A stretch of DNA of 49,955 nucleotides from Candidatus Azotimanducaceae bacterium (GTDB lineage Bacteria > Pseudomonadota > Gammaproteobacteria > Pseudomonadales > Azotimanducaceae): assembly GCA_047625245.1 (NCBI GenBank), contig JBLHQQ010000001.1:1-49955 (forward strand), given 5' to 3'. Made by a program: the position numbers and the translations under genes. Shown piece by piece: positions 31,939 through 46,566 of the stretch; the stretch's first letter is position 1, and each line of letters opens with the position of its first letter. The notes beneath the pieces are model-generated. The model did no database searches and had not been told where the DNA came from. It worked only from the letters and a program-made list of their open reading frames with translations.

Positions 31939-33011
31939 ACAATAACCTCATCAGGACGATAGTCTCTTAGGGCAACAGAACCGACAAAATTCCAGTAATT
32001 CATCGGACTCTGACCAGAACCCGGCCTCTTAATAGTGAGCATATCGGCGGTGATGACCTCACCCTTTTTAATTGCATTTCTAGCCACCAGACTTTTTCTG
32101 GCTATCACAATATTTTTAACCTCAGAAGGCCTAGGTCCTTTCAGGCCATCACCGATAGCGCGTTCAATATTTCGGACAGAACTCACCAACAATGACAGTT
32201 CTTGAGGCTCCAGAGACGCCTTGTGATCCGGCCCCTCCATTGTACGGTCCAGAGTGAAGTGCTTTTCGATGATCCTGGCCCCGCGGGCAACTGCTGCCAC
32301 AGAGACTTCTATGCCAGTGCTGTGGTCTGAGTAACCTACCGGAAGACCAAATGCGGACCTCATGCTGTCCATAGCAGCCAGGTTAATGTCTTCAAAGGGC
32401 GCTGGGTATTCAGTCGTACAGTGCAACAAAGATACATATTCTTGCAGCATCCTTTGTCCTTCAGCAGAGAAATAGGCCTCGCGAAATTGATTTACACCCG
32501 GTTCCACACCTTTCTGGTTGACCAGCCCAAAAGCAAGGACACTCAAGCAATTTTCGATATCAGCCAAAGATGACATCCCGGTAGATACAATCATCTTCCG
32601 TTTGGTACGAGCAAAATCTAATAACAGCGGTCCATTGGTCACTTCACCTGAAGGCACTTTAAGCAGGGATAAATTGAGATCATTAACCAGAAAGTCCAAA
32701 CTCTCGCTATCGAAAGGTGTTGAAAGAAAACTGATACCCTTGGACTCACAATATTTGATTAGAACTCTATGGGAATTATGATCGAGCTCCAGTCGCCTCA
32801 GCATATCAATTTGTGGTTCTGCCCGTGCAGTATTCACAATTTGATAGTCCGCTTGCCTCGCGTCAGAGGTTACCAGGCTTGATGCCTTGAACGTCTGGAA
32901 TTTGATAACGTCAGCGCCGGCTTGCACCGCGGCATCTACCAGTGCTATCGCGATATCTAGGCTACCATTGTGGTTTACTCCGGCTTCAGCTATTACAGTC
33001 GTATGTAACAT
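31935..33011 (-). CDS. neuB/legI: N-acylneuraminate-family synthase (LegI-type, PEP-condensing)
   Basis: Start taken at MLHTTVIAEAGVNHNGS, 1 nt after the neuC stop. NeuB domain plus C-terminal SAF domain (..ITADMLTIKRPG). Confidence 0.9.
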   Translation of the reverse strand: MLHTTVIAEAGVNHNGSLDIAIALVDAAVQAGADVIKFQTFKASSLVTSDARQADYQIVNTARAEPQIDMLRRLELDHNSHRVLIKYCESKGISFLSTPFDSESLDFLVNDLNLSLLKVPSGEVTNGPLLLDFARTKRKMIVSTGMSSLADIENCLSVLAFGLVNQKGVEPGVNQFREAYFSAEGQRMLQEYVSLLHCTTEYPAPFEDINLAAMDSMRSAFGLPVGYSDHSTGIEVSVAAVARGARIIEKHFTLDRTMEGPDHKASLEPQELSLLVSSVRNIERAIGDGLKGPRPSEVKNIVIARKSLVARNAIKKGEVITADMLTIKRPGSGQSPMNYWNFVGSVALRDYRPDEVIV

Positions 33012-33012
33012 A

Positions 33013-34179
33013 CTATTGGGTCCTGACTTCTGGTTGATCAAAAAAAGACTTAATGGGATCTAGCACCATAGTCTCGAGTACTTTTCTAATCTGGCCGCTG
33101 GCATCGCCACGTCCATAGGGATTGGCGTATACCAGCTCATCATTGCGGAACGTTTCAGACAACCCAAGGCGGATAGAACGCACAATCGCATCTCTCTCGA
33201 CATCACAATGTATTACAGATGCCGCCGCAGCTCTGCCCTTTTGGCGGTTACCTACATTTATTGTTGGTACATGAAAGGATGGCGCCTCAATTATGCCACT
33301 GGAGGAGTTTCCAATGACCAGCCGGCAGTGTTTCATCGCACTCAAATACCTGACCTGGCCCAATGACGGTACACCAACCACACGTCCACCCGATGTCGCT
33401 ACATAATCATCAATTAACGCAATAATCTGCCGCCCACCTTCATCCGCATTAGGATAGGTAAAGACAATCTGATGGTCGCTAAAGCAATCAAGTGCTGTCA
33501 GTAGATGTCCAAAATCATCGATAGCACCACGCTTCGACATTGTTTCTGGATGATAAGTTATGAGGAAGAATGGACGGTCCAGCCTAAAACTAATTGAAGC
33601 TGACAATTCTTCCGATGACATGAGGGCAGTCTTGCTTACATGGTCCAACCCTGGAGCTCCGACATTCTTTACGCGATCAGGTTTTTCACCCATCTGTATT
33701 ACACGTCTTCGGTGCTCTTCAGTGGTGGTGCAATGATATGTACTCATTTTGGTAATAGAGTGTCTGATGGCATCGTCGTATGCTCCCTCGGTCAACTCAC
33801 CACCGTGGATGTGCAGAATGGGTATTTTGAGAATAAGTGCCGTTTGCGCTGCAGCCAATGCTTCAAATCTATCGCCGAGAATCACTAAAACATCAGGTGA
33901 TAGACGGCTAAAAGATTCGGCTAAACTAATAGTGGCTAATCCCATCGATTTCAAAACTCCGACGGGTGTGTCTGATGAGAGCAGAATTTCGCACTTTTCA
34001 TCAATGGCAAAACCATCGCTCTCAATTTGTTGATAAGTCAGGCCAAATTCAGGAGACAGATGAGAACCGGTCGCAACTATCTGCAAAGCCAGTGAATCAC
34101 TAGCCTGAATTTCCTTCAGCAGCCAGAACAGAAGACCATATTCAGCTCGAGTGCCAGTAAAAATCAGTATTCTTCGCAT
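33013..34179 (-). CDS. neuC/legG: hydrolysing NDP-HexNAc 2-epimerase (NeuC/LegG-type)
   Basis: 388 aa. MRRILIFTGTRAEYGLL and HIHGGE motifs of hydrolysing UDP-GlcNAc 2-epimerases. Confidence 0.9.
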   Translation of the reverse strand: MRRILIFTGTRAEYGLLFWLLKEIQASDSLALQIVATGSHLSPEFGLTYQQIESDGFAIDEKCEILLSSDTPVGVLKSMGLATISLAESFSRLSPDVLVILGDRFEALAAAQTALILKIPILHIHGGELTEGAYDDAIRHSITKMSTYHCTTTEEHRRRVIQMGEKPDRVKNVGAPGLDHVSKTALMSSEELSASISFRLDRPFFLITYHPETMSKRGAIDDFGHLLTALDCFSDHQIVFTYPNADEGGRQIIALIDDYVATSGGRVVGVPSLGQVRYLSAMKHCRLVIGNSSSGIIEAPSFHVPTINVGNRQKGRAAAASVIHCDVERDAIVRSIRLGLSETFRNDELVYANPYGRGDASGQIRKVLETMVLDPIKSFFDQPEVRTQ

Positions 34180-34183
34180 TCAG

Positions 34184-35329
34184 CTAAACTTCGACTGCGG
34201 TGCTGGGCAAATTAACAATTCGCTGTGCCAGCCATTCTGAATTATGAAGTTCACCTCGGAATGCATTGGCATACATCGGTAATGTGTGCATCAGGTTCCA
34301 AACAGGTCTTGTCATTACACCACTGTCGTTAGTTTCTTTCAGGAGGTTATTCCTAGCAGCAAAGTCCTTGCAGATAACAGCATTGAGCCAATAATTAGAG
34401 CGGCAATGCTCTGGTTCATCAACAAATGTATATTCTGAATCTACAAAAAATGCTCTATATGATGCCGCCAAATTGCGCTTTTGCGTAATTATCTCTGGCA
34501 ATCGCTCCAACTGCGCGCAGCCCAAGGCCGAATTCAAGTTGGGTAACCGATAGTTAAAGCCAGCCTCTTCATGATAGAACTCATAAGGATGCGGTTTCTT
34601 TGCGGTGGTAGTTATGTGCTTTGCCCTGACACCATCATCAACATCGGCACACAGAAGCATACCACCGCCTCCCGTTGTGATGATTTTATTACCATTGAAA
34701 CTCAAGGCTCCGTATCGAGACAAGGTGCCTGTGTGTTGCCCTTTATAATAGGACCCCAGGCTTTCAGCAGCATCCTCAATAAGTTCTATATGCCATTTAT
34801 CGCAAACCTGCTGCAACTCATCCATTTCAACCGGGTGGCCAAATGTATGCATAGGTAGCACCGCGGCGATTTTACATTTTGATACCTTATGTCGACAGAT
34901 ACCGTTTCCATCGATCTCGGCATTTGAGGCCAAATATTCATTAAGCGCAACCGGGCACAATCCAAGCGTTTTTCGGGATACATCAACAAATATAGGACTG
35001 ACCCCCATGTGAAACATAACATTACACGCCGCCACAAAGGTCATGGCCTGCGTGATCACATGATCGCCGACCTGTATTCCCGCAAGGTAAAGAGCTGCGT
35101 GTATAGCCGCCGTGCCATTAACTGTGGCAATTGCCTTTTTTGCACCCGTGAATTTTTCTATATTTTCCTCGAAACGGTTTACGTATTTACCAACGCTGGA
35201 AACGTAGGTGCTATCAATCGCCTCAATTAAATACTCTTTCTCCGCGCCTTTAAAAACCGGTTCGCACAGCGCGATAAACTCATCCGTGTGGTAGATCTGA
35301 CGAATAAATTTCACTAGTTTTTCTGTCAT
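34184..35329 (-). CDS. legC: DegT/DnrJ/EryC1-class PLP aminotransferase, LegC type
   Basis: 381 aa. LSFNGNKIITTGGGGML signature and DAAESLGS motif. Confidence 0.9.
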   Translation of the reverse strand: MTEKLVKFIRQIYHTDEFIALCEPVFKGAEKEYLIEAIDSTYVSSVGKYVNRFEENIEKFTGAKKAIATVNGTAAIHAALYLAGIQVGDHVITQAMTFVAACNVMFHMGVSPIFVDVSRKTLGLCPVALNEYLASNAEIDGNGICRHKVSKCKIAAVLPMHTFGHPVEMDELQQVCDKWHIELIEDAAESLGSYYKGQHTGTLSRYGALSFNGNKIITTGGGGMLLCADVDDGVRAKHITTTAKKPHPYEFYHEEAGFNYRLPNLNSALGCAQLERLPEIITQKRNLAASYRAFFVDSEYTFVDEPEHCRSNYWLNAVICKDFAARNNLLKETNDSGVMTRPVWNLMHTLPMYANAFRGELHNSEWLAQRIVNLPSTAVEV

Positions 35330-35458: not shown

Positions 35459-36301
35459 CTACCAGACCGAACGACCACCATCCATAACGATATTCTGGCC
35501 ATTCATATAAGCAGATGCGTCAGAGCAGAGAAACTGGACTATTGAATGATACTCATCAACATGCGCCATACGTTGCATAGGGATTAGCGAGGTAAGTTTA
35601 TCGACGAAATCCTGACCCTGATTGTTTTCTACTCCACCCGGGGACAATGCGTTACACCTAACATTTTGCTCGACCCAATAGGTGGACAGGTAGCGAGTCA
35701 GCCCAACAAGCCCAGCCTTGATGACTGAGTAGGTAACAGGTTTTACGGGTTGCATGTCAGCAGGTATACCCTCTTTTTGATACAGTCTTTGATCAGGTGA
35801 AATAACAGAAAGATCAGAGGCAATATTCAAAATGACGCCACCACGGCCGCTTGACGCCATAACAGCACCAAAGACCTGACTACAAAGAAAAGCCCCGGTT
35901 AATCCTACAGAAATTTGCATTTCCCATTGCTCCAATGAGAAATTTTCAAGCCGCGAGGACTCTACCATTGACGAACTTGCATCGACTTTCGGGTCAATCG
36001 CTGCGTTGTTGACAAGTATATCAACTACTAAACCGGCATCCTGCAAACTTTGCTGTACACCTCGGATGGAGGACAGCGAGGCGACATTCATCTCTTGGAT
36101 TTGAATGTTTTCTGGATTGAATTCCGATTCCAGCTGCTTTTTTGCAGCCAATAGCCGAGTAGAGTCAATATCCGTTAAAACAACTGCAGCGTCCAAGTGC
36201 AGCAAGGCTTTAGCGTGCTCCATACCTAATAGACCCGCTGCCCCTGTAATCAGAGCGGTTTTACCTTCGAGGCTGAATTTCTGCAAACTGTCATGTTTCA
36301 T
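35459..36301 (-). CDS. PtmA-like SDR oxidoreductase (second copy)
   Basis: 280 aa. ALITGAAGLLGMEHA and YSVIKAGL motifs. Same subfamily pattern as 27506-28276. Confidence 0.7.
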   Translation of the reverse strand: MKHDSLQKFSLEGKTALITGAAGLLGMEHAKALLHLDAAVVLTDIDSTRLLAAKKQLESEFNPENIQIQEMNVASLSSIRGVQQSLQDAGLVVDILVNNAAIDPKVDASSSMVESSRLENFSLEQWEMQISVGLTGAFLCSQVFGAVMASSGRGGVILNIASDLSVISPDQRLYQKEGIPADMQPVKPVTYSVIKAGLVGLTRYLSTYWVEQNVRCNALSPGGVENNQGQDFVDKLTSLIPMQRMAHVDEYHSIVQFLCSDASAYMNGQNIVMDGGRSVW

Positions 36302-36314: not shown

Positions 36315-37079
36315 TTAAGCACGGACTTGTCCGCCATCTACGGTCAAAATACTACCGGTTATAAAATTCGACAGGGGTGAGGCTAAAAATATGGCAGCTC
36401 TAGCTATTTGATCTGGGGATCCCAGCGAGGAGAGTGCCACTTCCTTTCCCAGCATCGTTTCGACGGCGGACCTATTTTCCGCCAGTTTTTTCTCCCAGAC
36501 AGATCCATCAAAGAGCATGTTACCTGGTGCGATACCGCAGATTCGAACCCCTCTTTTACCAAGCGGCCTGGCAATACCTTTGATATAGGCATTTAAAGCG
36601 GCTTTCGCGACCGAATAGGTTACTGGAGCTCCGGGAATGACTTCGTTACCACAGATAGATGAAATGCACAGTATGCAACCTTGATGCTTCTGCAGTTCTG
36701 GCACGGCATGCTCGACAGTGTTAGTTGTGCTCCACAAATTGACGCTGAAAACCCTCTGCCATTCGCCAAAATCTTCTTCTCCAGGAGGTACAGAACGGCC
36801 AGAGCCGACGTTACAAACGACAATATCGAGACCGCCCAATTGCCTAACAGCCTCTGCAATGACATATTTGGCACCCTGAACTGTAGAAACATCGCCAACA
36901 ACCCCAACACTACCCGGTATTGATAGAATCGCTGCCTGCACCCGTGCGGACTCTCTGCCGTTTACAGCAACTGAGCAGCCTTCACTAGCAAAGTGTTGTG
37001 CAATGGATTTACCAATACCGCCGGATGAACCCGTCACTAAGACATTTTTGCCTTGCAATTCAAGCAGCATGCTGTTCAA
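36315..37079 (-). CDS. classical SDR oxidoreductase
   Basis: 254 aa. VLVTGSSGGIGKSIA and YSVAKAAL motifs. Confidence 0.85.
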   Translation of the reverse strand: MNSMLLELQGKNVLVTGSSGGIGKSIAQHFASEGCSVAVNGRESARVQAAILSIPGSVGVVGDVSTVQGAKYVIAEAVRQLGGLDIVVCNVGSGRSVPPGEEDFGEWQRVFSVNLWSTTNTVEHAVPELQKHQGCILCISSICGNEVIPGAPVTYSVAKAALNAYIKGIARPLGKRGVRICGIAPGNMLFDGSVWEKKLAENRSAVETMLGKEVALSSLGSPDQIARAAIFLASPLSNFITGSILTVDGGQVRA

Positions 37080-37899
37080 GCCAACGCTCTACCATCTGCA
37101 GGTAGCCCTTCAATACAGCCTGATGATTCTCATCAGTCGCCCTGGCAGTCTGCAGGATATAATTCCCCTTGTAACCCGACCTCGCAAGTAAGCGAAATAC
37201 TAAATCGAATAAAGCTGCTCCGCTTCCAAGTGGCACAGTTGTTCCTCCAAGAATACGATCTTTAACGTGTACATTAATAATACGCGAACCATAGCAGGCA
37301 AACTCCTCATTCGGATCAAATCCCAAGGCCGCACTGTTACCTATATCGTAATTAACACCAAAAGATTCTGCGTCAAGCCTACCGATGAACCGAGCAAGGT
37401 CTTCAGCCTTAAAATCACTCTCGAAGGCTATTCGCACCTTGCTGCGTTGAAAATAACTGACTTGTTCGCTCAAGAAATTTACCAGATGATCTTCTTGTTC
37501 ACGTGTATCAAGCCTTCCAGCATCAACCAGCGGTACAACGATGAAGCCTATTTTTAATTTGGCACAGGCATCAACAATTGCGACAAAATCCAGTTTCAAT
37601 CGGGAAGCCTGCTCGACCGTTGCAGCCTTCCAAAACGGCGCCTGCATAAAACAATCACCGGTCAGTGATGGGATACTGACAGCGTGTTGCTTTACTAATG
37701 CCTCAATACTCGCCCGACCTGGGTGAGTCATAATGGGGTTTTGATAAAGGTCAGCTTGGTCGAGTGTCCACTCCATGGCCCCTATACCAATTGCCGCCGC
37801 CGACGCAAATTCGTTCTGCCAGTTGGCTGCCGGAAACGCTTGGATTTTTCCGTCAACTAGGGCCGATAGACGACCCTGCATAAACCCTACTAAGCTCAT
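37060..37899 (-). CDS. xylose-isomerase-like TIM-barrel protein, UlaE/SgbU-like ketose-phosphate 3-epimerase type
   Basis: 279 aa. FESDF, NYDIGNSAALG, VHVKD and VPLGSGAALFDLVFRLLARSGYKGNYILQ align with L-xylulose/L-ribulose-5-P 3-epimerase motifs. Confidence 0.7.
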   Translation of the reverse strand: MSLVGFMQGRLSALVDGKIQAFPAANWQNEFASAAAIGIGAMEWTLDQADLYQNPIMTHPGRASIEALVKQHAVSIPSLTGDCFMQAPFWKAATVEQASRLKLDFVAIVDACAKLKIGFIVVPLVDAGRLDTREQEDHLVNFLSEQVSYFQRSKVRIAFESDFKAEDLARFIGRLDAESFGVNYDIGNSAALGFDPNEEFACYGSRIINVHVKDRILGGTTVPLGSGAALFDLVFRLLARSGYKGNYILQTARATDENHQAVLKGYLQMVERWLEQHAA

Positions 37900-38652
37900 C
37901 TATATTCCTTTTGCGGACCACCCGCCATCAACAAACAAGTCGGTTCCTGTTACGTAGCCAGATGCATCTGACGCGAGGTAGATTGCAGCTCCACACAGGT
38001 CAGAGGATTCTCCCCAACGCTTAATCATCATTCGATCCAAACGTTGCTCATGGAGTATTGGGTCACTAAAACTGCCTTTTGTCATATCAGTTTTTATATA
38101 GCCTGGTGCCAGATTGTTGACTCTGATGCCTCGAACAGCAAAATCAAAAGCGAGCGCCTTGCTCAACATTCGCAAACCGCCTTTTGAGGCAACATACGCG
38201 GGGTTACCTGGAAAGCCTAAAACAGATCCGATGCTAGTCACATTAATGATGGACCCACTAGCGCTAAGACTCATTAGGTCAGCAGCCAACATACAACACC
38301 GGTGCGTAGCTGAAAGATTAGTATCCAGAGTCCTCATGAATTGCTCACTATCTGCCGGTTGACTCGCTACTGGCAGAGTAATGCCCGCGGCATTAACCAG
38401 CACATCAAGCTGCTGGCAAGTTGCTTTAATCTCCTCAAAGAGATCACTTAGCTCTTTGCTATCCGTTACGTCACATTGTATGTAGCGCCAGTTGTTAGCG
38501 GTTTGACTCTCAATACTGCGACCGACGCCGATAACCACGCCACCGGCAAGATGCATGGCATCGGCTATGGCTTGGCCTATACCACGAGATGCACCCGTTA
38601 CCAGACAAACCTTCCCGTCCAAAGAAAACAGATTTTCGATATAGCTGCTCAT
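37900..38652 (-). CDS. classical SDR oxidoreductase (KduD/gluconate-5-dehydrogenase-like)
   Basis: 250 aa. VCLVTGASRGIGQAIA and YVASKGGL motifs. Confidence 0.85.
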   Translation of the reverse strand: MSSYIENLFSLDGKVCLVTGASRGIGQAIADAMHLAGGVVIGVGRSIESQTANNWRYIQCDVTDSKELSDLFEEIKATCQQLDVLVNAAGITLPVASQPADSEQFMRTLDTNLSATHRCCMLAADLMSLSASGSIINVTSIGSVLGFPGNPAYVASKGGLRMLSKALAFDFAVRGIRVNNLAPGYIKTDMTKGSFSDPILHEQRLDRMMIKRWGESSDLCGAAIYLASDASGYVTGTDLFVDGGWSAKGI

Positions 38653-39335
38653 TTGTTTAACTCGTAGCCCTTTATTATGGCCTCAATAAGGGCTATGTCC
38701 TCAAAGGTGTCTACTTGGTACATTTTATGGCGAGCCAGTTCAAACATACCAATTTTCCCACCCAGACGATTGTTAGTCTCACGCAACAAAGTTGGTGTAA
38801 ACACATAAAAAGAGCCATTTTCAAGATAGCTCGGTTGAATTTCCTGCCTGCGTTTTCGACTTTTAAAGTCGTAGTTGACTGACTCCAGCCCCTGAGCAGA
38901 TTTCCGCCAAACAAAATAGTCTTCCACTAACGTCACACTCAACAACGAGTCGTATCCACCAGATTTGAATTTCTCCAGAGCCCCTTTCAAGTCACTAGAT
39001 TCACGCACCGGTGAGGTTGCTTGCATCCCAACCAGAACACTGACATCTACGCCTGAAGATTCGATCTGGTTAAGCGCATCAATCCACGCGGACTCGGACG
39101 TCGCTAAATCACCGGCAATCTCGGCGGACCGCACTAGCGGGGATGCCCCATATTCTTCCGCAACACTCAAGATCTCATCACTGTCAGAGGTAACCCAGAC
39201 CGAATCGATACCGTCACACTTAAGTGCCTGTTCGATAGACCAGGCAATCAAGGGTTTACCCAGCATCGGATAGATATTTTTTCGAGGGATTCCTTTAGAA
39301 CCACCTCGTGCTGGAATTATTGCCACAGTGCTCAT
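38649..39335 (-). CDS. NeuA/KdsB-family cytidylyltransferase (CMP-ulosonic acid synthetase type)
   Basis: 228 aa. VAIIPARGGSKGIPRKNI and MQATSPVR motifs. Confidence 0.85.
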   Translation of the reverse strand: MSTVAIIPARGGSKGIPRKNIYPMLGKPLIAWSIEQALKCDGIDSVWVTSDSDEILSVAEEYGASPLVRSAEIAGDLATSESAWIDALNQIESSGVDVSVLVGMQATSPVRESSDLKGALEKFKSGGYDSLLSVTLVEDYFVWRKSAQGLESVNYDFKSRKRRQEIQPSYLENGSFYVFTPTLLRETNNRLGGKIGMFELARHKMYQVDTFEDIALIEAIIKGYELNK

Positions 39336-39337
39336 TA

Positions 39338-39943
39338 TTAGGAAACCTTAGCGTGCTGTGGAAAGTACAATCGTTCGACCATGCCACAGACGATATGGCC
39401 AATCAGTATATGACTTTCCTGAATTCTGGCAGTATCGCTCGAGGGGACACAGATACAACTTGCCAAAGACTTAAGTTTTCCTCCGCTCGCACCAGTTAAT
39501 ATCACTACAGGAACATCAAGCTCGCTTGCCGCGGCAACAGCATTAACTATATTTAAGCTATTACCACTCGTACTAATCGCTACAAAAATATCTTCTGGCT
39601 TAGCAATAGCCTGAATCTCTCGCGCGAAAGTCTGGTCATATCCGTAGTCATTACCAATAGCGCTCATAGCCGATGAGTTTGTTCCCAGTGCAATTGACGC
39701 GAGGGCCGGACGATCAAACAGGAATCTGGACGTGAACTCGGCAGAGAGATGTTGCGCATCTGCAAAACTTCCACCATTACCCGCAAATATTACCTTGCCG
39801 CCATTTTTTAAGCTGGCAAGGCACGCCTCGGCGAGGGCATGAATTTGACCAATGATACTGGCATCTGCTTTAAGTAGCTGTTTTACACTGATTGACTCAT
39901 CAATTTCAGCAACGATGCTCTGCAATACTTTGTTATCTGTCAT
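39338..39943 (-). CDS. gmhA: D-sedoheptulose-7-phosphate isomerase-like SIS protein
   Basis: 201 aa. VIFAGNGGSFADAQHLSAEF, AIGNDYGYDQTFAREI, ISTSGNS and ARIQESHILIGH, close to canonical GmhA motifs. Confidence 0.85.
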   Translation of the reverse strand: MTDNKVLQSIVAEIDESISVKQLLKADASIIGQIHALAEACLASLKNGGKVIFAGNGGSFADAQHLSAEFTSRFLFDRPALASIALGTNSSAMSAIGNDYGYDQTFAREIQAIAKPEDIFVAISTSGNSLNIVNAVAAASELDVPVVILTGASGGKLKSLASCICVPSSDTARIQESHILIGHIVCGMVERLYFPQHAKVS

Positions 39944-41826
39944 AACGTTCCTTCTAGTTTATCCAGGGCCACCCAGAAGCCTTCGCCACCGTTTTTATGC
40001 CCTTGCCATATTTCCGGAATAAAGGATGCAGACGGGCACCCATCCTTCAAAATACTCCCCAATTTATCGAAATCAATATCACCTTCACCCACCTGCAAAC
40101 CCTCGCCATTAACACCTGAAGCATCACCAATATGCAGATGCCCAGTAAAAGGCGCGACCTTTCTAGCGAATTCATAAAAGTCCGCATCGAAATGGTTGCA
40201 GGTCAATCGAGTATGTGACACGTCGAAACACATTCTTAAATTTAGTCGTTCACACCATGTGACAATCTCGTCAACATGAACAAACAGGTTCTGGTATCTT
40301 TGTCCTCCAAAATGCCAAGGAAAGGGCGCCATGGTCTGTGGAATCAACTCTGCGCCTTCAATATCGAGTTTAGACAAGCTATCTTCAAACCTTTCGTAAT
40401 ACCCTTGAATTTCACTAGATGGCAAAAGAGCATCCATCGTGAACCCGCCAATGTTCGCGACAATCATTGGTCGTTTTGTTGATGGGAAAAATCGTTTCAG
40501 AGACCTTGTGATATCAATAACTCTCTGTGTTTCTACAATCGAATAGTTTCGATAACTCTCATCAGGAGAGGCAAGATCCATCAAGCGACTACCTGAAAAA
40601 AGTTCCGGGGCGTGAACGACAAAGTCGCAATCGTATGTGCCTGTTAGGTACTCATCGATATTTAAGTCTAGATCCGTGTAGGAGAGATGGAATTCATAAA
40701 GGTCCGCCTTCACTCGCTCTTCGAACTGTTTGAAATCATGATATCGAACTGGAACACCCCAAGGCCGGTTGAAACCGAACGCCCTCGGTTCAACCCGACT
40801 ATCTTGTAGGTCTGAGGGATAGAAATAGTCCTCGGTCTCCATATCGCGACCAACAGTCATTCCAATCAATTGTTCATAATATTGGGCCGACAAGCCCTGC
40901 CCAGGACTCAACACCTTGAGATGCTCCGGCGCTATCGTAGTACCTTTAGCGAGGTTAGTTGAGGCAACCAGACTTTTCGCCAGATTCTCTCGATTTATCA
41001 TTTCACCTTGAGATATCCGCCGCGAAAGCCCGTCGCCTAATGCTTGTTCGATTTCTCGAATACCTTCCACCATTAAGCCAAACTCAGAAACCTCCAGGCT
41101 CGCAGCATGATCGGGGCCCTCCATTTGGCGGTCGAGGGTAAAGTGCCTTTCAACGACTATTACACCAAGCGCGACAGCTGCCAACGAAACAGCTGTTCCG
41201 CGTTCGTGACCTGAATAGCCAACCAATGGGTGAATGTCTCTGAGTTTAGTTAACCATTTGAGGTTTATATCTTGCAAAGGCGCGGGGTAGGTACTGTTGC
41301 AGTGCAGAAGTACAAAACTGCTTTCACGCTTGGTCAGGAACTCTACTGTAAAGGCAACCTCAGCCGGTGTGCTCATCCCAGTTGAAAGTATGAGAGGTTT
41401 GTTGGTCGCTGACAATCGATCCAACAGTGGCATATTCGTTAAATCAGCTGAAGCAACTTTATAGGCTGGGACGCCAAAATCCTCAAGAATATCAACACTT
41501 CGGTTATCCCAGGGGGTGCAGAGATACAAGATGTCATTATCAGCACAATAAGTCGCTAACTCCCGCTGCTCCTCCACGGACAACTCAAATCTTTCCAGTA
41601 GATCAAGAACATATTCGGTACCGAGATCCTCCCCGTCACGCCGCAATGACTTAGCTCGGTAGACATCTTTAAGATGCCGCATCTGGAATTTGACACAGTC
41701 CGCACCGGCCCTTTTCGCCTCACCTACCATATGCTTGGCACGTTCAAGGCTGCCGTTGTGATTGTTGCCTATTTCAGCAATCACAAATGTACGGCTACTA
41801 CCGATTTCGAATTTTCCAATATGCAT
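39940..41826 (-). CDS. NeuB-SAF ulosonic-acid synthase fused to a C-terminal xylose-isomerase-like TIM-barrel domain
   Basis: Start taken at MHIGKFEIG (AGGTGA 7 nt upstream; the ORF extension to 41898 would overlap the upstream gene). Roughly residues 1-290 are NeuB (IAEIGNNHNGS, HCNSTYPAP, GYSGHE, DH). A SAF domain follows. Roughly residues 370-628 are TIM-barrel (VVHAPE, FDVSH, HLHIGD, IPEIW). Confidence 0.85.
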   Translation of the reverse strand: MHIGKFEIGSSRTFVIAEIGNNHNGSLERAKHMVGEAKRAGADCVKFQMRHLKDVYRAKSLRRDGEDLGTEYVLDLLERFELSVEEQRELATYCADNDILYLCTPWDNRSVDILEDFGVPAYKVASADLTNMPLLDRLSATNKPLILSTGMSTPAEVAFTVEFLTKRESSFVLLHCNSTYPAPLQDINLKWLTKLRDIHPLVGYSGHERGTAVSLAAVALGVIVVERHFTLDRQMEGPDHAASLEVSEFGLMVEGIREIEQALGDGLSRRISQGEMINRENLAKSLVASTNLAKGTTIAPEHLKVLSPGQGLSAQYYEQLIGMTVGRDMETEDYFYPSDLQDSRVEPRAFGFNRPWGVPVRYHDFKQFEERVKADLYEFHLSYTDLDLNIDEYLTGTYDCDFVVHAPELFSGSRLMDLASPDESYRNYSIVETQRVIDITRSLKRFFPSTKRPMIVANIGGFTMDALLPSSEIQGYYERFEDSLSKLDIEGAELIPQTMAPFPWHFGGQRYQNLFVHVDEIVTWCERLNLRMCFDVSHTRLTCNHFDADFYEFARKVAPFTGHLHIGDASGVNGEGLQVGEGDIDFDKLGSILKDGCPSASFIPEIWQGHKNGGEGFWVALDKLEGTL

Positions 41827-41848: not shown

Positions 41849-43216
41849 TTAGTTGACCTGTTCTCGCACAGTCCAGGCACGCAGGCCATCTTGATCAAAG
41901 CGGAATGGCCTTACTGTTTTACCAGTTGCCTGCAAATGTTGCACCAGTTCGTGCTTTCGAAATGCAGATGCATAAAACAGGAAGAATCCGCCGCCCCCAG
42001 CGCCCAGCAACTTTCCGCCGATCGCGCCATTTTCTTTTGCTGCATCATAGATTCTGTCGAGATTTGGCGATGAGATTTTTTGACTGAATTCCCTCTTCAG
42101 ATTCCAAGCTTCGTCAAGGGCCAAACCGAATTCTGGCAGCCTGCCTCGTAACAAGTGATCCCTGATTTTATCCGTAAGCTCAACGTTAGCAATCATATGG
42201 GCTCGAACATCTGCATTTTTCATTCTATCCCGTTGATCCTGGTGAATGTCATGAGAACTATGATCGAGACCTGTGTCACAAAGCACCAGGCTCTCTTCTA
42301 GTTCGAGCAACAGGTCGGCATTGATTCTTAATGGATGTATTCGGTTTTGATCCATTCTGAATTCCATGAAATTAAATCCACCAAACACACTGGCATACTG
42401 ATCCTGCCAGCCACCAGCAACGCCCATGTATATCCTTTCGGCTTGATAAGCTAATTCGGCAATTTCATGAGAGTCCCATTTATCACTTCTAAACTGATTG
42501 AAGCATCCGAGGATGGTAGCTGCCACAACAGAGGAGCCGCCAAGCCCGGAGTTCATAGGGAAGTCCGAATTCAAATATAGTTCAAATCCAAAATCTGGAT
42601 GTATGGTCTTAAGTAAGGCCTGAACTAAAGCGAAAACGCTATCGGCGCGCAAAGCCTCCGCAAGATTGTCAGCTTCAAGAGAACAACCCAAATCTAGTGA
42701 GTGGAGGACAATTTTCTCGTCATCTCTCTTCTTGAGTGTCGCATGACTATAAATGGAAATAGTCGCATTAATTACCGCGCCTCTCTCGCTATTAAAAAAG
42801 TGGGTCAGATCAGATCCCCCGCCCCCGAAACTAACTCTGACAGGCGCTCTCGCCCTTGCATAGACCCTACCTTCATTACTAACGGGGAAGTGATCCCGAC
42901 TAACGATGCCCTGCAATTTTCGCTCATCGTCTAGAAGTGGTATTACGCGAATTTTATGATCGAGTCGTTTCATCAAAAATTCTCGCGAAACGAGGGGACT
43001 CTCCCACACAAACTCTTCATTGGTGCACAATGAGATCATATCATCTAGAGACCCCCCGTTCAGCAGCCTTCTGCGTATATCGCCATCAGTAGCCAGCCCG
43101 ACCACCTCTCCGGTAGCTAAAGTAGTCAGTATAATCCCATGGTGATTTCGCTCAATCAGCTTAAGCGCATCTCTGAGCGACGAGTGTTGGGCAATAAGAA
43201 AATTTTCTAAATTCAT
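41849..43216 (-). CDS. hddA: CBS-pair + GHMP anomeric sugar kinase (HddA/fucokinase-like)
   Basis: 455 aa. CBS pair (GLATDGDIRRRLL), then RAPVRVSFGGGGSD, PMNSGLGGSSVVAA, GGWQDQY and GAGGGGF motifs typical of D-glycero-D-manno-heptose-7-P kinase. Confidence 0.8.
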   Translation of the reverse strand: MNLENFLIAQHSSLRDALKLIERNHHGIILTTLATGEVVGLATDGDIRRRLLNGGSLDDMISLCTNEEFVWESPLVSREFLMKRLDHKIRVIPLLDDERKLQGIVSRDHFPVSNEGRVYARARAPVRVSFGGGGSDLTHFFNSERGAVINATISIYSHATLKKRDDEKIVLHSLDLGCSLEADNLAEALRADSVFALVQALLKTIHPDFGFELYLNSDFPMNSGLGGSSVVAATILGCFNQFRSDKWDSHEIAELAYQAERIYMGVAGGWQDQYASVFGGFNFMEFRMDQNRIHPLRINADLLLELEESLVLCDTGLDHSSHDIHQDQRDRMKNADVRAHMIANVELTDKIRDHLLRGRLPEFGLALDEAWNLKREFSQKISSPNLDRIYDAAKENGAIGGKLLGAGGGGFFLFYASAFRKHELVQHLQATGKTVRPFRFDQDGLRAWTVREQVN

Positions 43217-43920
43217 AACTCACCTTTCCGACCGCTCTCGATCCATTGACAGAATTTGTGATAATCATCAGGTATACCGATATCAATGAAACTGGTATCG
43301 AGAGTAATTGCTTTGAGTAACCGCTTGTTTACCAACTCAACCAATGTGCGATTTTCCAGAGAAAAGGGATGCCCATCCCAATTTGAAAAATACTCAGTGT
43401 TCAACCGGCAAATACCAGAGTTGATCCAACCAGGCCTCCGTTTCTCGGACTTTTCAGAAAAACGTGTTATTAACATTCTCTCGTCAAATTCAATTTGGCC
43501 ATAGCGACTAGTATCTGGCACTTCTAATACGCCGACAGCAGGCCCTTTGGAGGACGAGATTATTTTGTAGCCATTGCCAAGCCAGGTATCAGCGTTGACC
43601 AGTAAAAAGTCACCCGTTAACGACAACTCAGAAACTGCAAAAGCGACCGCGCCCCCAGTGTTAAGAGGAGTGGTCTCTATGACATATCTCACCTCACAGC
43701 CATTTAGAAGCGTGGATTCGTACTTATGCAAGAAAGCTAGAATCAGGTCCGCTCGGTATCCGAGTAAAAAAACAAATGACTTTGCCCCTTGCTCGATCCA
43801 CGCCTCCAGTTGAAGGTGGAGAAACGGAACGCCTCCTATCGGAGCAAGGGCCTTGGGTACATCACTGACCACTGACTTCAACCTGCTGCCTACGCCACCC
43901 GCGAGCACTAAGATTTTCAT
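43213..43920 (-). CDS. hddC: sugar-1-phosphate nucleotidyltransferase (HddC-like)
   Basis: 235 aa. MKILVLAGGVGSRLKS..PKALAPIGG motif. 4-nt overlap with the kinase gene. Confidence 0.8.
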   Translation of the reverse strand: MKILVLAGGVGSRLKSVVSDVPKALAPIGGVPFLHLQLEAWIEQGAKSFVFLLGYRADLILAFLHKYESTLLNGCEVRYVIETTPLNTGGAVAFAVSELSLTGDFLLVNADTWLGNGYKIISSSKGPAVGVLEVPDTSRYGQIEFDERMLITRFSEKSEKRRPGWINSGICRLNTEYFSNWDGHPFSLENRTLVELVNKRLLKAITLDTSFIDIGIPDDYHKFCQWIESGRKGEL

Positions 43921-43951
43921 CTATTTATCATTCCTACTGTCCCGTTAACAT

Positions 43952-44840
43952 TCATATCAACGTCATCTGATAGATATTCATTTGATCATGACGTAAAGAA
44001 TCACGTCGCAGCAAAGCCATCAAGTCTCGTTTATCAAAGAAATTAAGCTGTAGTAGGCGTAACATCAGCCGCATGCGTTTAGTTAACTTGGACTGGGGTT
44101 TAGAAGGGCCCTCAGCAGATAGACACATGGGGCAACCCATATCAGGGTCATCACCAAATCTTTATTGGTGCCAACAAACAATCTTATCCTCAGGTTTTGC
44201 TTGATCCACTTGAAGAACAATTCGACCTGCTATCTAGCTTTGTAAATGTCAGCGATGGTGCGTGCTGATAGCGTAAAGTTATTTGACAGAACGGTGTAGC
44301 GCTTGCCTGTTTCAACATTTTTGTAACCGATACGTCGCAACTGAACGAGGTATTTCTTGGCGTATAAGAACCGTGCACTCGATGGTATGGACACAGGTCA
44401 AACCCTTATTTTTCAACACAGGGTGGCGAAGAACAATTCTATGTTTGGCGTTTGACTTGAGCCGTGTCACAAAGAATCTTCTTCTTTCAGTCAAATGGTT
44501 ATACCTACCATAGTCGTTCTAGCGCTTGTCAATCGCTACCATGCTCCCCCTGGCGAAATTCAGTGAACGCCGAACGGTAATAACGGCTGCCTTGCCGTCT
44601 GTTGTCGCCACGAACTCGGGCGGGTAGCCGTCATGACTAAGCTCGATATCGAGCTTTACCGCGCCCCTGTGTTACTCGGAATTTGGCCAAGGGGGAAAAC
44701 CGACAAACATAGATCGACGGAGTCACGGGCTGAAACCATCGGGATGCAGTAGAAATACGAAGTCCACTCGGGTGTTGTTTTGCTAGAGTCTCAAATTCAT
44801 GTCTCTGCACTAGCTTTAGGAGTTGAGAAAGCATCGTCAT
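43952..44840 (-). pseudogene. IS4-family (DUF4372 + DDE_Tnp_1 type) transposase, frameshifted, nonsense-mutated and internally shortened
   Basis: Fragments in three frames: LSQLLKLVQRHEFETLAKQH (N-terminus), FFVTRLKSNAKHRIV, and RIGYKNVETGKRYTVLSNNFTLSARTIADIYKAR*QVELFFKWIKQNL, where TAG replaces the conserved Trp. Candidate terminal inverted repeats at 43928-43948 and 44938-44955. Confidence 0.75.
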
Positions 44841-45490
44841 ATTAGGTGCCGTCGCTTGGTTTTCTTTTTTCTCAAGGACTTGTTGTGATTTTATCGTAAC
44901 AAAACAGAGAGTTTTCTAGACCTCTTTATTTGGCATTTAACTGGACGGTAATGAGCGCTTGACTTGGTTAACCGGCTATCCTAATTCATTAATTCAGCTA
45001 AGTAGTACTTCGTTTTGGACTCACGCATCCCCAACGCAAGGCAGGCTGGCTGGCTGGAAAAGACCTTGTTGATTTCCGTAATCAAATATCGAAGAAATCA
45101 TCAGAAATAGTGATCAGAGGGCTACGCCCAAAATTTAGTACAGCACAATAAGAGATTAAACGCTTCAGTATTGGCATCGTTGATGTCGTAGATAAAAGAA
45201 GAAATTATCAAAAGTCCTCGTAGGAATTACTCATTTGTGCTCAAAGCTCAGGTGCAGACTCGTGCGCAGACCTTATCATGACTGGTGGTTGGCTGGTTGA
45301 GCCTCAAGTTCATGCCAAGCGATGATTGACCGTTATGATCAACTGCCTGTGGGCAAGGTTTATCCCAAAAAAGGGCCGCTCACTGAATTGTCCACTGAGA
45401 GCAGGCAAGAACCTATCGTCACCATGGACTATTGGTGAGCCAGCAGGCAACGCTGTAGTGCATCGATCAATTGCATCGACAGGCGCTTAA

Positions 45491-45511
45491 CTGGCCAATC
45501 CAGTTGGCCAG
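45491..45511 (-). terminator. weak hairpin downstream of wzz
   Basis: ctggccaa / ttggccag 8-bp stem with a 5-nt loop, 27 nt after the wzz stop. Only UU follows on the transcript. Confidence 0.3.
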
Positions 45512-45537: not shown

Positions 45538-46566
45538 TTAAAGATCCTCTCTCTTTCTCGCGTAGTGCGTCACCAAGACCCACAAAACTGCCAACATACC
45601 ACCCAGTAGCGTGCCTAATACACAAATCAACGCCCTTGTAGGTTCGGATTTTTTTTCTGGAACGACGGCTGGGTCGATAATCTTGAAGGCATACTCCTGG
45701 CGCACCTTGGCCAACATAATGGTCTCGGTTTGCGACTGTATCAGCTCGAAAAACATGGACTGCAAATCTGTGAGCAAGGTCGCCTCAACCTGCTGCTTAA
45801 GATAGGCGATAGCGCGCTCGGCCTCTGTGACGTCTTGCTCCCGTAATGTGTTATTAATGTCCTCGATTAACCAAACAACCCACTGCTGCGCCACTACTGG
45901 CGAGTAATGCTTGATACTTAATCTGATAAAACCGCTATTTTTATCCTCAGCAATTGACAATAGCTCTTCAAACACTTCATAAGCCTCCTGGAGGCTTGGT
46001 AATGGTCGCTTTGGATGGGGAACGTCGCGAACCCATTTTTTTGTAGCGCTCTCATAGATTTCATTGTCTATTATCAAGTCCCCTGTTGACTGGTCCCAGC
46101 CGCTTGACGCCATCAGTGGTACAAGCAAATCGTGATGCTCGATGAATTCCGCAATGAAACGCCGAGACTTCATTACCTCTAACCCCAACGCGGTTTTGTC
46201 GTCACCCCCGCCGCCAGGTAACGATATTCCAGCCAGACTTGCCAGTCCACCATACTGCTTTGCTAGACCCCCCAGACCAGCACTACTGCTACTTGCAGGC
46301 GCCAGGAGGGCTTCCGATTGGTATATATTAGGTAGGCTGAGTGCAAATAATACCGCTATGATAGAGGCAATAGCCGTAATCCCACCAATCCACCACTTGC
46401 CACCCCAAAGCACTCCAAACAATTCCCGCAAATCAATCTCATCATCCGCATAGTCAGAATGATAATCAGAAGGAACTATTGCGCCTGTTTGATCAACCAA
46501 CTTACCCAAAATAACCGACCTCTTTAAAGTGCAACAACAGTAATCGCAGACTGGTAGATGATCCAT
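45538..46566 (-). CDS. wzz: polysaccharide chain-length determinant (Wzz/OtnB-like, PCP without kinase domain)
   Basis: DDEIDLRELFGVLWGGKWWIGGITAIASIIAVLFALSLPNIYQSEALLAP N-terminal Wzz signature, a coiled central part and a C-terminal TM helix. The true start is probably TTG at 46509 (AAGAGG 9 nt upstream); upstream codons look like wza remnant. Confidence 0.85.
   Translation of the reverse strand: MDHLPVCDYCCCTLKRSVILGKLVDQTGAIVPSDYHSDYADDEIDLRELFGVLWGGKWWIGGITAIASIIAVLFALSLPNIYQSEALLAPASSSSAGLGGLAKQYGGLASLAGISLPGGGGDDKTALGLEVMKSRRFIAEFIEHHDLLVPLMASSGWDQSTGDLIIDNEIYESATKKWVRDVPHPKRPLPSLQEAYEVFEELLSIAEDKNSGFIRLSIKHYSPVVAQQWVVWLIEDINNTLREQDVTEAERAIAYLKQQVEATLLTDLQSMFFELIQSQTETIMLAKVRQEYAFKIIDPAVVPEKKSEPTRALICVLGTLLGGMLAVLWVLVTHYARKREDL

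What the first reader, a model, noticed from the sequence alone, without database searches (positions are those of the whole stretch)
39940..41826. NeuB-SAF synthase covalently fused to a xylose-isomerase-like TIM barrel
The 628-aa product has a complete NeuB-SAF part (IAEIGNNHNGS ... GYSGHE ... SAF). It continues without a stop into a domain of about 260 aa with the HAPE / D.SH / HLHIGD / PEIW metal-ligand pattern of sugar-phosphate isomerase/epimerase TIM barrels. Characterised NeuB, LegI and PseI enzymes stop after the SAF domain. The fusion implies substrate channelling between a ketose/aldose(-phosphate) isomerisation or epimerisation step and PEP condensation. A free-standing paralog of the TIM domain (37060-37899) lies three genes downstream.
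Basis: seen in the sequence. Interest (0 to 1): 0.72.

Follow-up and report, generated by a model that had tools for sequence, protein, structure and literature searches.

The report
NeuB sugar-acid synthase fused to TIM barrel
This is a real, widely conserved two-enzyme fusion: a sialic-acid-type synthase joined to a metal-binding barrel domain of untested function, sitting in a conserved gene set that probably makes an undescribed acidic surface sugar.

Summary
ORF 39940-41826 (-) encodes 628 aa with NeuB, SAF and xylose-isomerase-like TIM domains in one frame. It is not a frameshift artefact. At least 578 species genomes from many phyla encode collinear full-length homologues; the best 80 are 63-76% identical.

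The fusion has been noted before. A roughly 750-aa sister form carries an extra N-terminal CBS domain and is 49% identical end to end. It matches, by architecture and gene order, the Serratia marcescens capsule neuB required for KDN production (PMC9000132). The TIM domain's role was not tested there.

The window's subfamily is uncharacterised. It sits in a conserved cassette: HddC-like transferase, CBS-HddA-like kinase, the fusion, GmhA-like isomerase, CMP-transferase, a second TIM barrel and SDRs. No NeuC is present.

The NeuB part keeps its catalytic residues but lacks the arginine that reads the N-acetyl group. The TIM part has Gln at the first canonical catalytic Glu and extra invariant His/Asp/Glu residues. 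It occurs essentially only with this NeuB clade.

The "free-standing paralog" shares only the superfamily. The isomerase-channelling reading is possible but not favoured. I favour a hydrolytic release step and a heptose-derived product. Both are inferences.

The parts
39940..41826 (-). NeuB-SAF-TIM fusion gene (628 aa plus stop)
   Evidence: ORF and start site; Pfam domains; full-length homologues.
41017..41826 (-). NeuB catalytic barrel (about residues 1-270)
   Evidence: PF03102, 274 bits. Alignment to NmNeuB and CjPseI keeps E18, K46/Q48, T104, K123/S126, S148, S205/H207, E226/H228 and D239.
40807..40977 (-). SAF (antifreeze-like) domain, residues 284-340
   Evidence: PF08666, 40.4 bits. 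NmNeuB Arg314 aligns to Ser307 in a conserved SPGQGLS motif.
39943..40794 (-). C-terminal xylose-isomerase-like TIM barrel, residues 345-628
   Evidence: PF01261. AF2 pLDDT 79, pTM 0.84. Foldseek. hhalign to UlaE (95%) and Nfo (91%). Invariant E378, H380, H405, D535, H538, H565, D568, E575, E605, H610.
41849..43216 (-). CBS + GHMP kinase, HddA-like; directly upstream
   Evidence: Pfam CBS and GHMP_kinases_N/C. NF049969 HddA, 249 bits, below the 600 cut-off. Present about 1390 nt upstream of the fusion start in 77/83 related loci.
43213..43920 (-). Sugar-1-phosphate nucleotidyltransferase, HddC-like
   Evidence: PF00483. NF049965 HddC, 130 bits, below the 300 cut-off. Present in 66/83 loci, truly absent in about 9.
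39338..39943 (-). SIS-domain sugar-phosphate isomerase, GmhA-like; start overlaps the fusion's stop codon
   Evidence: PF13580. Phosphoheptose isomerase models score 170-190 bits, below cut-offs. Present in 63-65/83 loci.
38649..39335 (-). CMP-sugar-acid synthetase (CTP_transf_3)
   Evidence: PF02348. PseF model, 130 bits, below cut-off. One of two cytidylyltransferase types is present in about 70/83 loci.
37900..38652 (-). SDR 1; lies in the variable slot of the cassette
   Evidence: adh_short_C2. Orthologue at more than 50% identity in only about 7 loci. Other loci carry aminotransferases, a glyoxalase-like protein or methyltransferases here.
37060..37899 (-). Stand-alone UlaE-like TIM barrel; conserved cassette member, not a close paralog of the fused domain
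   Evidence: PF01261, 81 bits. L-ribulose-5-P 3-epimerase models match weakly. BLASTP against the fused domain gives E = 4.3. Present in 68/83 loci.
36315..37079 (-). SDR 2; conserved cassette member
   Evidence: adh_short_C2. Present in 58/83 loci by tblastn. The SDR cluster is present in 71 loci, usually with two copies.
35459..36301 (-). SDR 3 (PRK09186- and PtmA-like); last conserved cassette gene
   Evidence: Present in 69/83 loci at 44-68% identity, two weak hits aside.

Best explanation
Shown: the gene encodes a genuine, ancient, horizontally widespread bifunctional protein. Its N-terminal NeuB-SAF part is a catalytically intact PEP-condensing ulosonic-acid synthase of a distinct clade. 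It is not a NeuB, LegI or PseI equivalog, and it lacks the Arg that reads the 2-acetamido group. Its C-terminal part is a divergent metal-site TIM barrel found essentially only with this synthase clade.

Inferred from literature and context: the CBS-bearing sister form appears to be the KDN (mannose + PEP) synthase type of capsule loci.

Inferred for this window: the fusion is the condensing enzyme of a self-contained nine-gene cassette. The cassette builds a manno/heptose-type sugar through GmhA-, HddA- and HddC-like enzymes, with a GmhB-like phosphatase in many relatives. It condenses that sugar, or a derivative, with PEP. Two SDRs and a UlaE-like barrel tailor an intermediate or the product. 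The cassette ends with CMP activation for use in the surrounding polysaccharide locus.

Favoured but unproven: the fused TIM domain catalyses the metal-dependent step next to condensation. The likeliest candidate is a hydrolytic release. That could mean freeing the aldose from its 1-phosphate or nucleotide form, or removing the terminal phosphate of the product. Sugar isomerisation is less likely.
For: - Fusion real and conserved.
- Catalytic NeuB residues kept; R314 becomes S307 and E134 becomes D128. Scores fall below the NeuB and PseI equivalog cut-offs.
- TIM subfamily tied to NeuB. Of the top 150 cluster representatives, 94 carry NeuB. Of these, 44 are 700 aa or longer and 27 are 590-699 aa. 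All three 'stand-alone' copies examined lie directly after a NeuB gene of the same clade, and two are on broken low-coverage assemblies.
- Cassette synteny in 83 loci from many phyla: kinase 77, SDRs 71, TIM2 68, nucleotidyltransferase 66, SIS 63-65, NeuC only 4. A GmhB that passes the TIGR00213 cut-off heads the cassette in 32 loci.
- Sister 750-aa form: 49% identical and collinear. It occurs as a CTP_transf_3 + fusion pair in Colwellia, Paraglaciecola and an Ensifer plasmid (1.9-Mb replicon); homologues are also recorded in Pseudoalteromonas and Marinomonas. ManC is directly upstream in Colwellia and Ensifer.
- S. marcescens neuB has a 2241-bp ORF with an extra COG1082 domain, with neuA upstream and wzx downstream. 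It is required for KDN and for minor Neu5Ac (PMC9000132).
- TIM site: Q497 sits at UlaE E155 / Nfo E145. D535/H538 align with Nfo D179/H182. H565 aligns with H211/H216, and E605 with E251. Further invariant residues are E378, H380, H405, D568, E575 and H610.
Against: - No enzyme assay exists for any member's TIM domain.
- The link to S. marcescens NeuB rests on the paper's description of length, domains and gene order. I did not have the Serratia sequence to compare.
- The best Foldseek hits are sugar epimerases and isomerases, not hydrolases. Endo IV ranks lower.
- The nucleotidyltransferase is missing from about 9 complete loci (SAR86, Bacteroidota). An NDP-sugar may therefore not be an obligatory intermediate, and the heptose genes could serve a second sugar of the same glycan.
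- The GmhA-, HddA- and HddC-like proteins all score below their equivalog cut-offs. The sugar need not be D-glycero-D-manno-heptose.
- Making a sugar-1-phosphate only to hydrolyse it looks wasteful.
- The inter-domain geometry of the full-length model is unreliable (pTM 0.51).
Confidence: 0.45

Rival explanations
1. The TIM domain is a sugar or sugar-phosphate isomerase or epimerase that produces the aldose consumed by the NeuB domain, with channelling between the two sites.
For: - Pfam AP_endonuc_2 membership.
- Top structural neighbours are UlaE, L-ribulose/ketose 3-epimerases and L-rhamnose isomerase.
- D535, H565 and E605 align with three of the four canonical ligands.
- About 30% of family representatives keep Glu at position 497.
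Against: - Gln at the first catalytic Glu in about 70% of the family, including this protein and the 750-aa sister-form representative P0126.
- The cassette already has a SIS isomerase and a UlaE-like barrel.
- A two-gene KDN module has no obvious need for an isomerase when mannose-6-P or GDP-mannose is available. ManC is adjacent in two taxa.
Confidence: 0.25
2. The TIM domain tailors the condensation product (for example dehydration or epimerisation of the ulosonic acid) before CMP activation.
For: - The superfamily includes dehydratases such as IolE and AsbF (established knowledge).
- The domain follows the synthase in the polypeptide.
- The cassette contains other tailoring-type enzymes.
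Against: If the Serratia-type enzyme yields plain KDN (PMC9000132), no tailoring is needed in the sister family. That family nevertheless keeps the same invariant residues.
Confidence: 0.1
3. The TIM domain is non-catalytic. It would be a scaffold for oligomerisation or for docking the kinase or CMP-transferase.
For: The inter-domain arrangement is unresolved. Several conserved loops are modelled with low confidence.
Against: About ten invariant His/Asp/Glu residues lie at barrel-strand ends across representatives as little as 33% identical to the query. This is typical of a working metal site.
Confidence: 0.05
4. The fusion is an assembly or frameshift artefact of two adjacent genes.
For: A few database entries show NeuB and TIM as separate adjacent genes.
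Against: Hundreds of independent genomes carry the single collinear ORF. Of the split cases examined, two are on coverage-2 to -3 contigs (L086, L099) and one on a scaffold with ambiguous bases (L098); NeuB is visibly broken in L098 and L099.
Confidence: 0.01

Closest known systems
Serratia marcescens KL1/KL2 capsule NeuB (Anderson et al. 2022, PMC9000132)
   Same: A NeuB synthase carrying an extra sugar-phosphate isomerase/epimerase (COG1082) domain in one ORF. It lies in a polysaccharide locus with a CMP-transferase. It is genetically required for a non-acetamido ulosonic acid (KDN). The matching 750-aa family is 49% identical and collinear with the window protein, and shares the SPGQGL, KVASAD, GYSGHERG and PFPWHFGGQ motifs.
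   Different: It is about 746 aa, as in the 750-aa family, whose members carry an N-terminal CBS domain; the paper does not mention CBS. It works as a neuA-neuB pair without kinase, SIS or SDR genes. The window protein is 628 aa, the CBS is on the upstream kinase, and the protein sits in a heptose-type cassette. I did not compare it with the Serratia sequence itself.
Characterised bacterial NulO synthases: N. meningitidis NeuB (1XUU/1XUZ), C. jejuni PseI (8H2C), LegI
   Same: NeuB barrel plus SAF domain. Metal His pair and PEP-binding residues are conserved. Identity is 30-33%.
   Different: These end after the SAF domain. They use 2-acetamido sugars released by NeuC, LegG or PseG. They have Arg314, which is Ser307 here. 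The window protein is below the equivalog cut-offs. No NeuC-type gene is in the cassette (4/83 loci).
KDN-9-P / Neu5Ac-9-P route: B. thetaiotaomicron KDN-9-P synthase + HAD phosphatase; animal NANS + NANP (established knowledge; cited in PMC9000132)
   Same: A NeuB-type synthase is paired with a phosphatase that acts on the next step. This gives a precedent for a synthase-hydrolase pair and for KDN synthesis from a mannose phosphate.
   Different: There the phosphatase is a separate HAD-fold protein. Here the partner is a fused xylose-isomerase-fold barrel, and phosphatase activity is only hypothesised.
Xylose-isomerase-like TIM barrels: E. coli UlaE, ketose 3-epimerases, Endo IV (Nfo), M. jannaschii MJ1311 (3WQO)
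   Same: Same fold (TM 0.5-0.6). Shared D-x-x-H, H-x-x-D and G-E-G-x-I-D-F motifs. MJ1311 is the only PDB sequence hit (E = 4e-6).
   Different: Only 11-15% identical. Gln sits at the first Glu. Additional invariant His/Glu residues are present (H380, H405, E575, H610). The family-specific loop MAPFPWHFGGQRYQN is present. The domain is always attached to NeuB.
GDP-D-glycero-alpha-D-manno-heptose pathway (GmhA, HddA, GmhB, HddC) and its octose analogue in lincomycin biosynthesis (LmbN/P/K/O; established knowledge)
   Same: The same four enzyme types surround the fusion. A GmhB passing its cut-off is present in 32/83 relatives.
   Different: All three proteins present in the window score below their equivalog cut-offs. 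The kinase carries an extra CBS domain. No GmhB is in the window. The nucleotidyltransferase is absent from some loci.

Membership tests
NeuB / nonulosonic-acid synthase family (PF03102 + SAF) | NeuB catalytic barrel above the Pfam threshold | tested here: met
   274.4 bits against a cut-off of 22.1.
NeuB / nonulosonic-acid synthase family (PF03102 + SAF) | C-terminal SAF / antifreeze-like domain | tested here: met
   40.4 bits against a cut-off of 21.
NeuB / nonulosonic-acid synthase family (PF03102 + SAF) | Metal-binding His pair and PEP-binding/catalytic residues (NmNeuB E25, K53, K129, S132, S154, S213, H215, E234, H236; numbering recalled from the 1XUZ literature) | tested here: met
   Aligned residues are E18, K46, K123, S126, S148, S205, H207, E226 and H228. 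They are invariant in 40 homologues.
N-acetylneuraminate synthase proper (TIGR03569) / pseudaminic acid synthase (TIGR03586) | Score above the curated equivalog cut-off | tested here: not met
   333.7 against 399.65, and 245 against 340.25. The window's other NeuB (31935-33041) passes with 479 bits.
N-acetylneuraminate synthase proper (TIGR03569) / pseudaminic acid synthase (TIGR03586) | Arg314 of the SAF domain, which contacts the substrate N-acetyl group | tested here: not met
   Arg314 aligns to Ser307, which is nearly invariant in the family.
Xylose-isomerase-like TIM barrel (PF01261) | Pfam score above the gathering threshold and an (alpha/beta)8 fold | tested here: met
   61.6 bits against 31.1. 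AF2 domain model has pTM 0.84 with eight strands. Foldseek probability 1.0 to UlaE and 3-epimerases.
Ketose / sugar-phosphate 3-epimerases (UlaE, DTE type) | Glu-Asp-His-Glu metal/catalytic tetrad with both Glu residues as acid/base | tested here: not met
   The first Glu is Gln497 (Q 79, E 33 of 112 in the family). H565 and E605 align by hhalign; D535 aligns to Nfo D179 (the UlaE D185 region aligned poorly).
Endonuclease IV-type multinuclear metal site | Nine ligands: H69, H109, E145, D179, H182, H216, D229, H231, E261 | tested here: inconclusive
   D535, H538 and H565 align to Nfo by hhalign. E605 is assigned to E261 by analogy through UlaE E251. Q497 replaces E145. H380, H405 and E575 are plausible counterparts but are not aligned with confidence. 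No model coordinates were available to check geometry.
KDN-associated long NeuB (S. marcescens KL1/KL2 type) | NeuB and a COG1082/TIM domain in one polypeptide | tested here: met
.
KDN-associated long NeuB (S. marcescens KL1/KL2 type) | About 746-750 aa with an N-terminal CBS domain, and neuA immediately upstream as a two-gene module | tested here: not met
   The window protein is 628 aa without CBS. The CMP-transferase lies two genes downstream. The 750-aa type is described.
KDN-associated long NeuB (S. marcescens KL1/KL2 type) | Produces KDN | not testable with these tools
   Requires biochemistry or glycan analysis.
GDP-D-glycero-alpha-D-manno-heptose pathway (for the cassette) | GmhA, HddA and HddC equivalogs above cut-off, plus GmhB | tested here: not met
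   190 against 276, 249 against 600, and 130 against 300. There is no GmhB in the window. A GmhB above cut-off is present in 32/83 related loci. The proteins are related in kind but are not equivalogs.

The most novel reading that the evidence does not exclude
The 628-aa subfamily and its cassette make a CMP-activated ten-carbon 3-deoxy-2-ulosonic acid. This would be a heptose + PEP homologue of KDN, further oxidised, epimerised or aminated in some lineages. The fused barrel would be a new phosphate- or nucleotide-releasing hydrolase within the xylose-isomerase fold. That would define a new class of bacterial surface sugar present in hundreds of species, from Leptospira to SAR86 and Cyanobium.
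Probability: 0.2. Interest if true: 0.85.

Novelty: new variant of a known kind. Interest (0 to 1): 0.58.

Why it matters
Bacterial KDN and other non-amino ulosonic acids have no fully worked-out pathway. The one genetic study that met this architecture left the extra domain unexplained.

This fusion is present in at least 578 species genomes across more than ten phyla. The residues of its barrel domain are conserved across cluster representatives as little as 33% identical to it. A simple set of assays could therefore assign a function to a large, uniformly mis-annotated family ("N-acetylneuraminate synthase").

The heptose-type cassette around the window's subfamily points to a surface sugar that has not been described chemically. 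That matters for O-antigen and capsule typing, phage receptors and immune recognition. It also matters for mass-spectrometric surveys of nonulosonic acids, which would miss a C10 species if they do not look for it.

Tried and rejected
- Literature. A large NeuB phylogeny paper (PMC8208679) does not mention it. A search for C10 ulosonic acid terms returned nothing. The only relevant source is PMC9000132. Its follow-up, PMC12077157, adds nothing on the domain. The J Nat Prod cyclitol review was a false lead.
- Structure. The whole-protein Foldseek run was dominated by the NeuB half. Model coordinates cannot be inspected, so I could not test whether the two active sites face each other.
- Profile alignments. 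hhalign with the shallow alignment gave only fragments. A first attempt with the deep set failed on a coverage filter. The corrected run is.
- Look-ups. P0367 (Marinomonas) is not on record. Cluster-member names gave no Serratia entry. I therefore could not obtain the Serratia NeuB sequence.
- Recalled NANS sequence. It is no closer than bacterial NeuB and is unverified, so it is not used as evidence.
- Rejected ideas. Frameshift artefact is rejected because of conservation. The fusion does not belong to the window's legionaminic-acid genes: NeuC and DegT co-occur in only 4 and 18 of 83 loci.
Full report
**1. The observation**

The minus strand carries one open frame from 41898 to 39940. That ATG is preceded by AGGTGA. 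It lies 22 nt after the stop of the upstream gene. The fusion's TGA overlaps the ATG of the next gene.

Pfam places three domains on the protein:
- NeuB at residues 33-266 (274 bits).
- SAF at 284-340 (40 bits).
- AP_endonuc_2, the xylose-isomerase-like TIM barrel, at 398-609 (61.6 bits against a cut-off of 31.1).

Base composition is even across the window. Solved NeuB, PseI and SpsE proteins are 290-385 aa and end after the SAF domain. The extra 280 residues are therefore unusual relative to characterised enzymes.

**2. Artefact or real?**

A search of 5.8 billion proteins returned more than 120 proteins of about 630 aa with the same three domains, 71-78% identical over 99-100% of the query.

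The best 80 are 63-76% identical over residues 1-628. They come from Alpha-, Beta-, Gamma- and Deltaproteobacteria, Bacteroidota, Leptospira, Cyanobium, Chlorobium, Nitrospinota, Nitrospirota, Planctomycetes, Verrucomicrobia, Chlamydiota, Bdellovibrionota and Armatimonadetes.

A frameshift in this window is excluded. The fusion is old or highly mobile, and it is under strong constraint.

**3. The neighbourhood**

I ran tblastn and ORF clustering on 83 related loci. Both show a fixed co-directional cassette:

| Gene | Position relative to the fusion start | Loci (of 83) |
|---|---|---|
| Nucleotidyltransferase | about -2.1 kb | 66 |
| CBS-GHMP kinase | -1.39 kb, often overlapping the fusion's start | 77 |
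| NeuB-SAF-TIM fusion | 0 | 83 |
| SIS isomerase | +1.9 kb | 63-65 |
| CTP_transf_3 cytidylyltransferase (two types) | downstream | about 70 |
| Variable slot: class III or IV aminotransferases, glyoxalase-like protein, methyltransferases, or an SDR as in this window | downstream | variable |
| 279-aa TIM protein | downstream | 68 |
| Classical SDRs, usually two copies | downstream | 71 |

NeuC is present in only 4 loci and DegT in 18. The legionaminic-type genes downstream in this window (26017-35329) are therefore a separate pathway.

By NCBIfam, the kinase, transferase and SIS proteins are closest to HddA, HddC and GmhA, but all score below the equivalog cut-offs. In 32 loci a phosphatase that passes the GmhB cut-off heads the cassette. 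The window has none.

About nine loci with complete upstream sequence (SAR86, Bacteroidota) lack the nucleotidyltransferase.

**4. The NeuB half**

Alignment to N. meningitidis NeuB and C. jejuni PseI keeps the metal histidines and the PEP-binding and catalytic residues. Two substitutions stand out. Arg314 becomes Ser307, in a conserved SPGQGLS motif. Glu134 becomes Asp128. PDB entries 4IPI and 4IPJ are the R314A and R314K mutants of NeuB. That this residue contacts the N-acetyl group is recalled from the literature.

The protein scores below both the NeuB and PseI equivalog cut-offs. It is a competent PEP-condensing enzyme with a different acceptor, most simply one without a 2-acetamido group.

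**5. The TIM half**

Modelled alone, the domain is an eight-stranded barrel (pLDDT 79, pTM 0.84). Foldseek finds UlaE, L-ribulose and ketose 3-epimerases, L-rhamnose isomerase, MbnB and Endo IV at TM 0.5-0.6 and 11-15% identity. By sequence, the only solved relative is the uncharacterised MJ1311.

A search of 1.84 billion cluster representatives with the domain alone found 862 clusters (214 at E <= 1e-30). Of the top 150 representatives, 94 also carry NeuB. Of those, 44 are 700 aa or longer and 27 are 590-699 aa. The long ones are CBS-NeuB-SAF-TIM.

I examined three apparent stand-alone copies. Each lies directly after a NeuB gene of the same clade. Two of them are on visibly broken low-coverage assemblies. 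The subfamily is therefore essentially specific to this synthase.

A family profile aligns to E. coli UlaE (95% probability) and Endo IV (91%). The correspondences, checked against the real E. coli sequences, are:
- Gln497 falls on UlaE E155 / Nfo E145.
- D535/H538 fall on Nfo D179/H182.
- H565 falls on UlaE H211 / Nfo H216.
- E605 falls on UlaE E251.

Across 112 representatives, position 497 is Q in 79 and E in 33. Residues E378, H380, H405, D535, H538, H565, D568, E575, E605 and H610 are invariant or nearly so.

A Q/E-tolerant position cannot be the essential general base of a 3-epimerase. The His-rich ligand set looks more like the multi-metal members of the fold than like the mononuclear E-D-H-E epimerases. 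This is suggestive, not decisive.

The free-standing TIM protein at 37060-37899 is UlaE-like and has no detectable pairwise similarity to the fused domain (E = 4.3). It is a conserved cassette member, not a duplicate.

**6. The sister family and the literature**

The 750-aa form is 49% identical and collinear with the window protein. It shares the clade-specific motifs. It occurs as a minimal pair, CTP_transf_3 followed by the fusion, inside polysaccharide loci. Those loci lack kinase, SIS and SDR genes.

I saw this arrangement in metagenomic contigs, Colwellia, Paraglaciecola mesophila and an Ensifer canadensis plasmid (1.9-Mb replicon). Homologues of the 750-aa form are also recorded in Pseudoalteromonas and Marinomonas. 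A bifunctional ManC gene is directly upstream in Colwellia and Ensifer.

Anderson et al. 2022 (PMC9000132) describe exactly this arrangement in S. marcescens KL1/KL2:
- neuA, then a 2241-bp neuB, then wzx.
- Deleting neuB abolishes sialic acid production.
- The capsule contains KDN, with Neu5Ac at about 1:20.

The domain's role was not examined there or in the follow-up. I could not fetch the Serratia sequence, so this link rests on architecture, length and gene order.

**7. How it most likely works**

Shown: a bifunctional protein whose two halves are co-inherited as a unit. It has an intact condensing site and a conserved metal-type site.

Inferred: in the sister family the pair (CMP-transferase plus fusion) suffices, with housekeeping mannose metabolism, to make CMP-KDN. 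The TIM domain must therefore do something that plain KDN synthesis needs. There are three options:
- It frees mannose from GDP-mannose or mannose-1-P.
- It removes the 9-phosphate if the synthase uses mannose-6-P. Animal NANS/NANP and the Bacteroides KDN-9-P synthase/phosphatase pair work this way (established knowledge).
- It supplies the aldose by isomerisation.

I favour a hydrolytic role at about 45%, against about 25% for isomerase or epimerase. The reasons are the Q497 result, the redundancy of another isomerase in a cassette that already has SIS and UlaE-like enzymes, and the need for a releasing step that no other conserved gene obviously provides.

In this window the same chemistry is embedded in a heptose-type activation pathway. 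The simplest reading is that a manno-heptose or a derivative is condensed with PEP, tailored by the SDRs and the second barrel, and then CMP-activated.

Three caveats apply. The nucleotidyltransferase is not universal. The heptose-type enzymes are not equivalogs. The heptose genes could serve a second sugar of the same glycan.

**8. Novelty and verdict**

The architecture is catalogued by automatic annotation as "N-acetylneuraminate synthase family protein" or "SpsE/sugar phosphate isomerase/epimerase". It has been remarked on once in print. The fusion itself is therefore not a discovery.

What is open:
- The function of the barrel domain.
- The identity of the product of the 628-aa subfamily's cassette, which is conserved across many phyla.
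- Whether that product is a ten-carbon acid. I found no paper naming such a sugar.

I rate this a new variant of a known kind, interest 0.58. The most novel admissible reading (a C10 KDN homologue plus a new hydrolase activity in this fold) has probability about 0.2.

Noticed in passing
window 26017-35329 (-): A second, separate nonulosonic-acid pathway of the legionaminic type. It comprises DegT aminotransferase (34184), NeuC-like hydrolysing epimerase (33013), a canonical NeuB that passes the TIGR03569 cut-off (31935), formyltransferase (31009), CBS-nucleotidyltransferase of PtmE type (29964), GFO/Idh/MocA oxidoreductase (28942), cytidylyltransferase (28269), SDR (27506), and a glutamine amidotransferase + HisF-like pair (26819, 26017). 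This suggests N-formyl or acetimidoyl decoration. No 4,6-dehydratase was seen next to these genes.
   Followed up: partly
window 15797-21994 (-): A third cytidylyltransferase, fused to a cupin domain (17483-18622). Its neighbours are an SDR, DUF4862, a D-2-hydroxyacid dehydrogenase, a GFO-family oxidoreductase and a KpsS-like Capsule_synth protein. The locus may therefore encode three different CMP-activated sugars.
   Followed up: no
window 8101-12173 (-): A second GmhA-like SIS protein (11571-12173) lies near a 3-dehydroquinate-synthase-like protein (8101-9192) and an SDR (9170-9880). A sugar-phosphate-cyclase-type enzyme in a polysaccharide locus is unusual.
   Followed up: no
window 43950-45500: A 1.6-kb stretch between wzz (45538-46566) and the cassette holds only short broken ORFs on both strands. 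It may be decayed insertion-sequence debris.
   Followed up: no
window 41849-43216; L088 10001-12256; window 29964-31019: A CBS domain sits on a different enzyme in each related pathway. It is on the GHMP kinase in the 628-aa cassette, on NeuB itself in the 750-aa form, and on the nucleotidyltransferase in the legionaminic pathway. It looks like a portable regulatory module.
   Followed up: partly
L036 and L079 (SAR86); L031, L040, L050, L052, L053, L062: These cassette variants keep the CBS-kinase (and GmhB in SAR86) but have no nucleotidyltransferase. In L079 the SDRs, TIM2 and SIS genes lie upstream of the kinase. In L099 the transferase and phosphatase lie downstream of SIS.
   Followed up: partly
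L001 18513-19682; L093 11337-12443: A polysialyltransferase-like gene (PF07388, A-2_8-polyST) follows both the 630-aa cassette (L001) and the 750-aa pair (Paraglaciecola). It is a candidate transferase for the new sugar acid.
   Followed up: no
window 45538-46566 versus L004 1723-2694: The window's Wzz protein is nearly identical to that of a 'Candidatus Azotimanducaceae' MAG. That MAG also gives the best genome hit for the fusion (76%). The window probably comes from a related marine gammaproteobacterium.
   Followed up: partly
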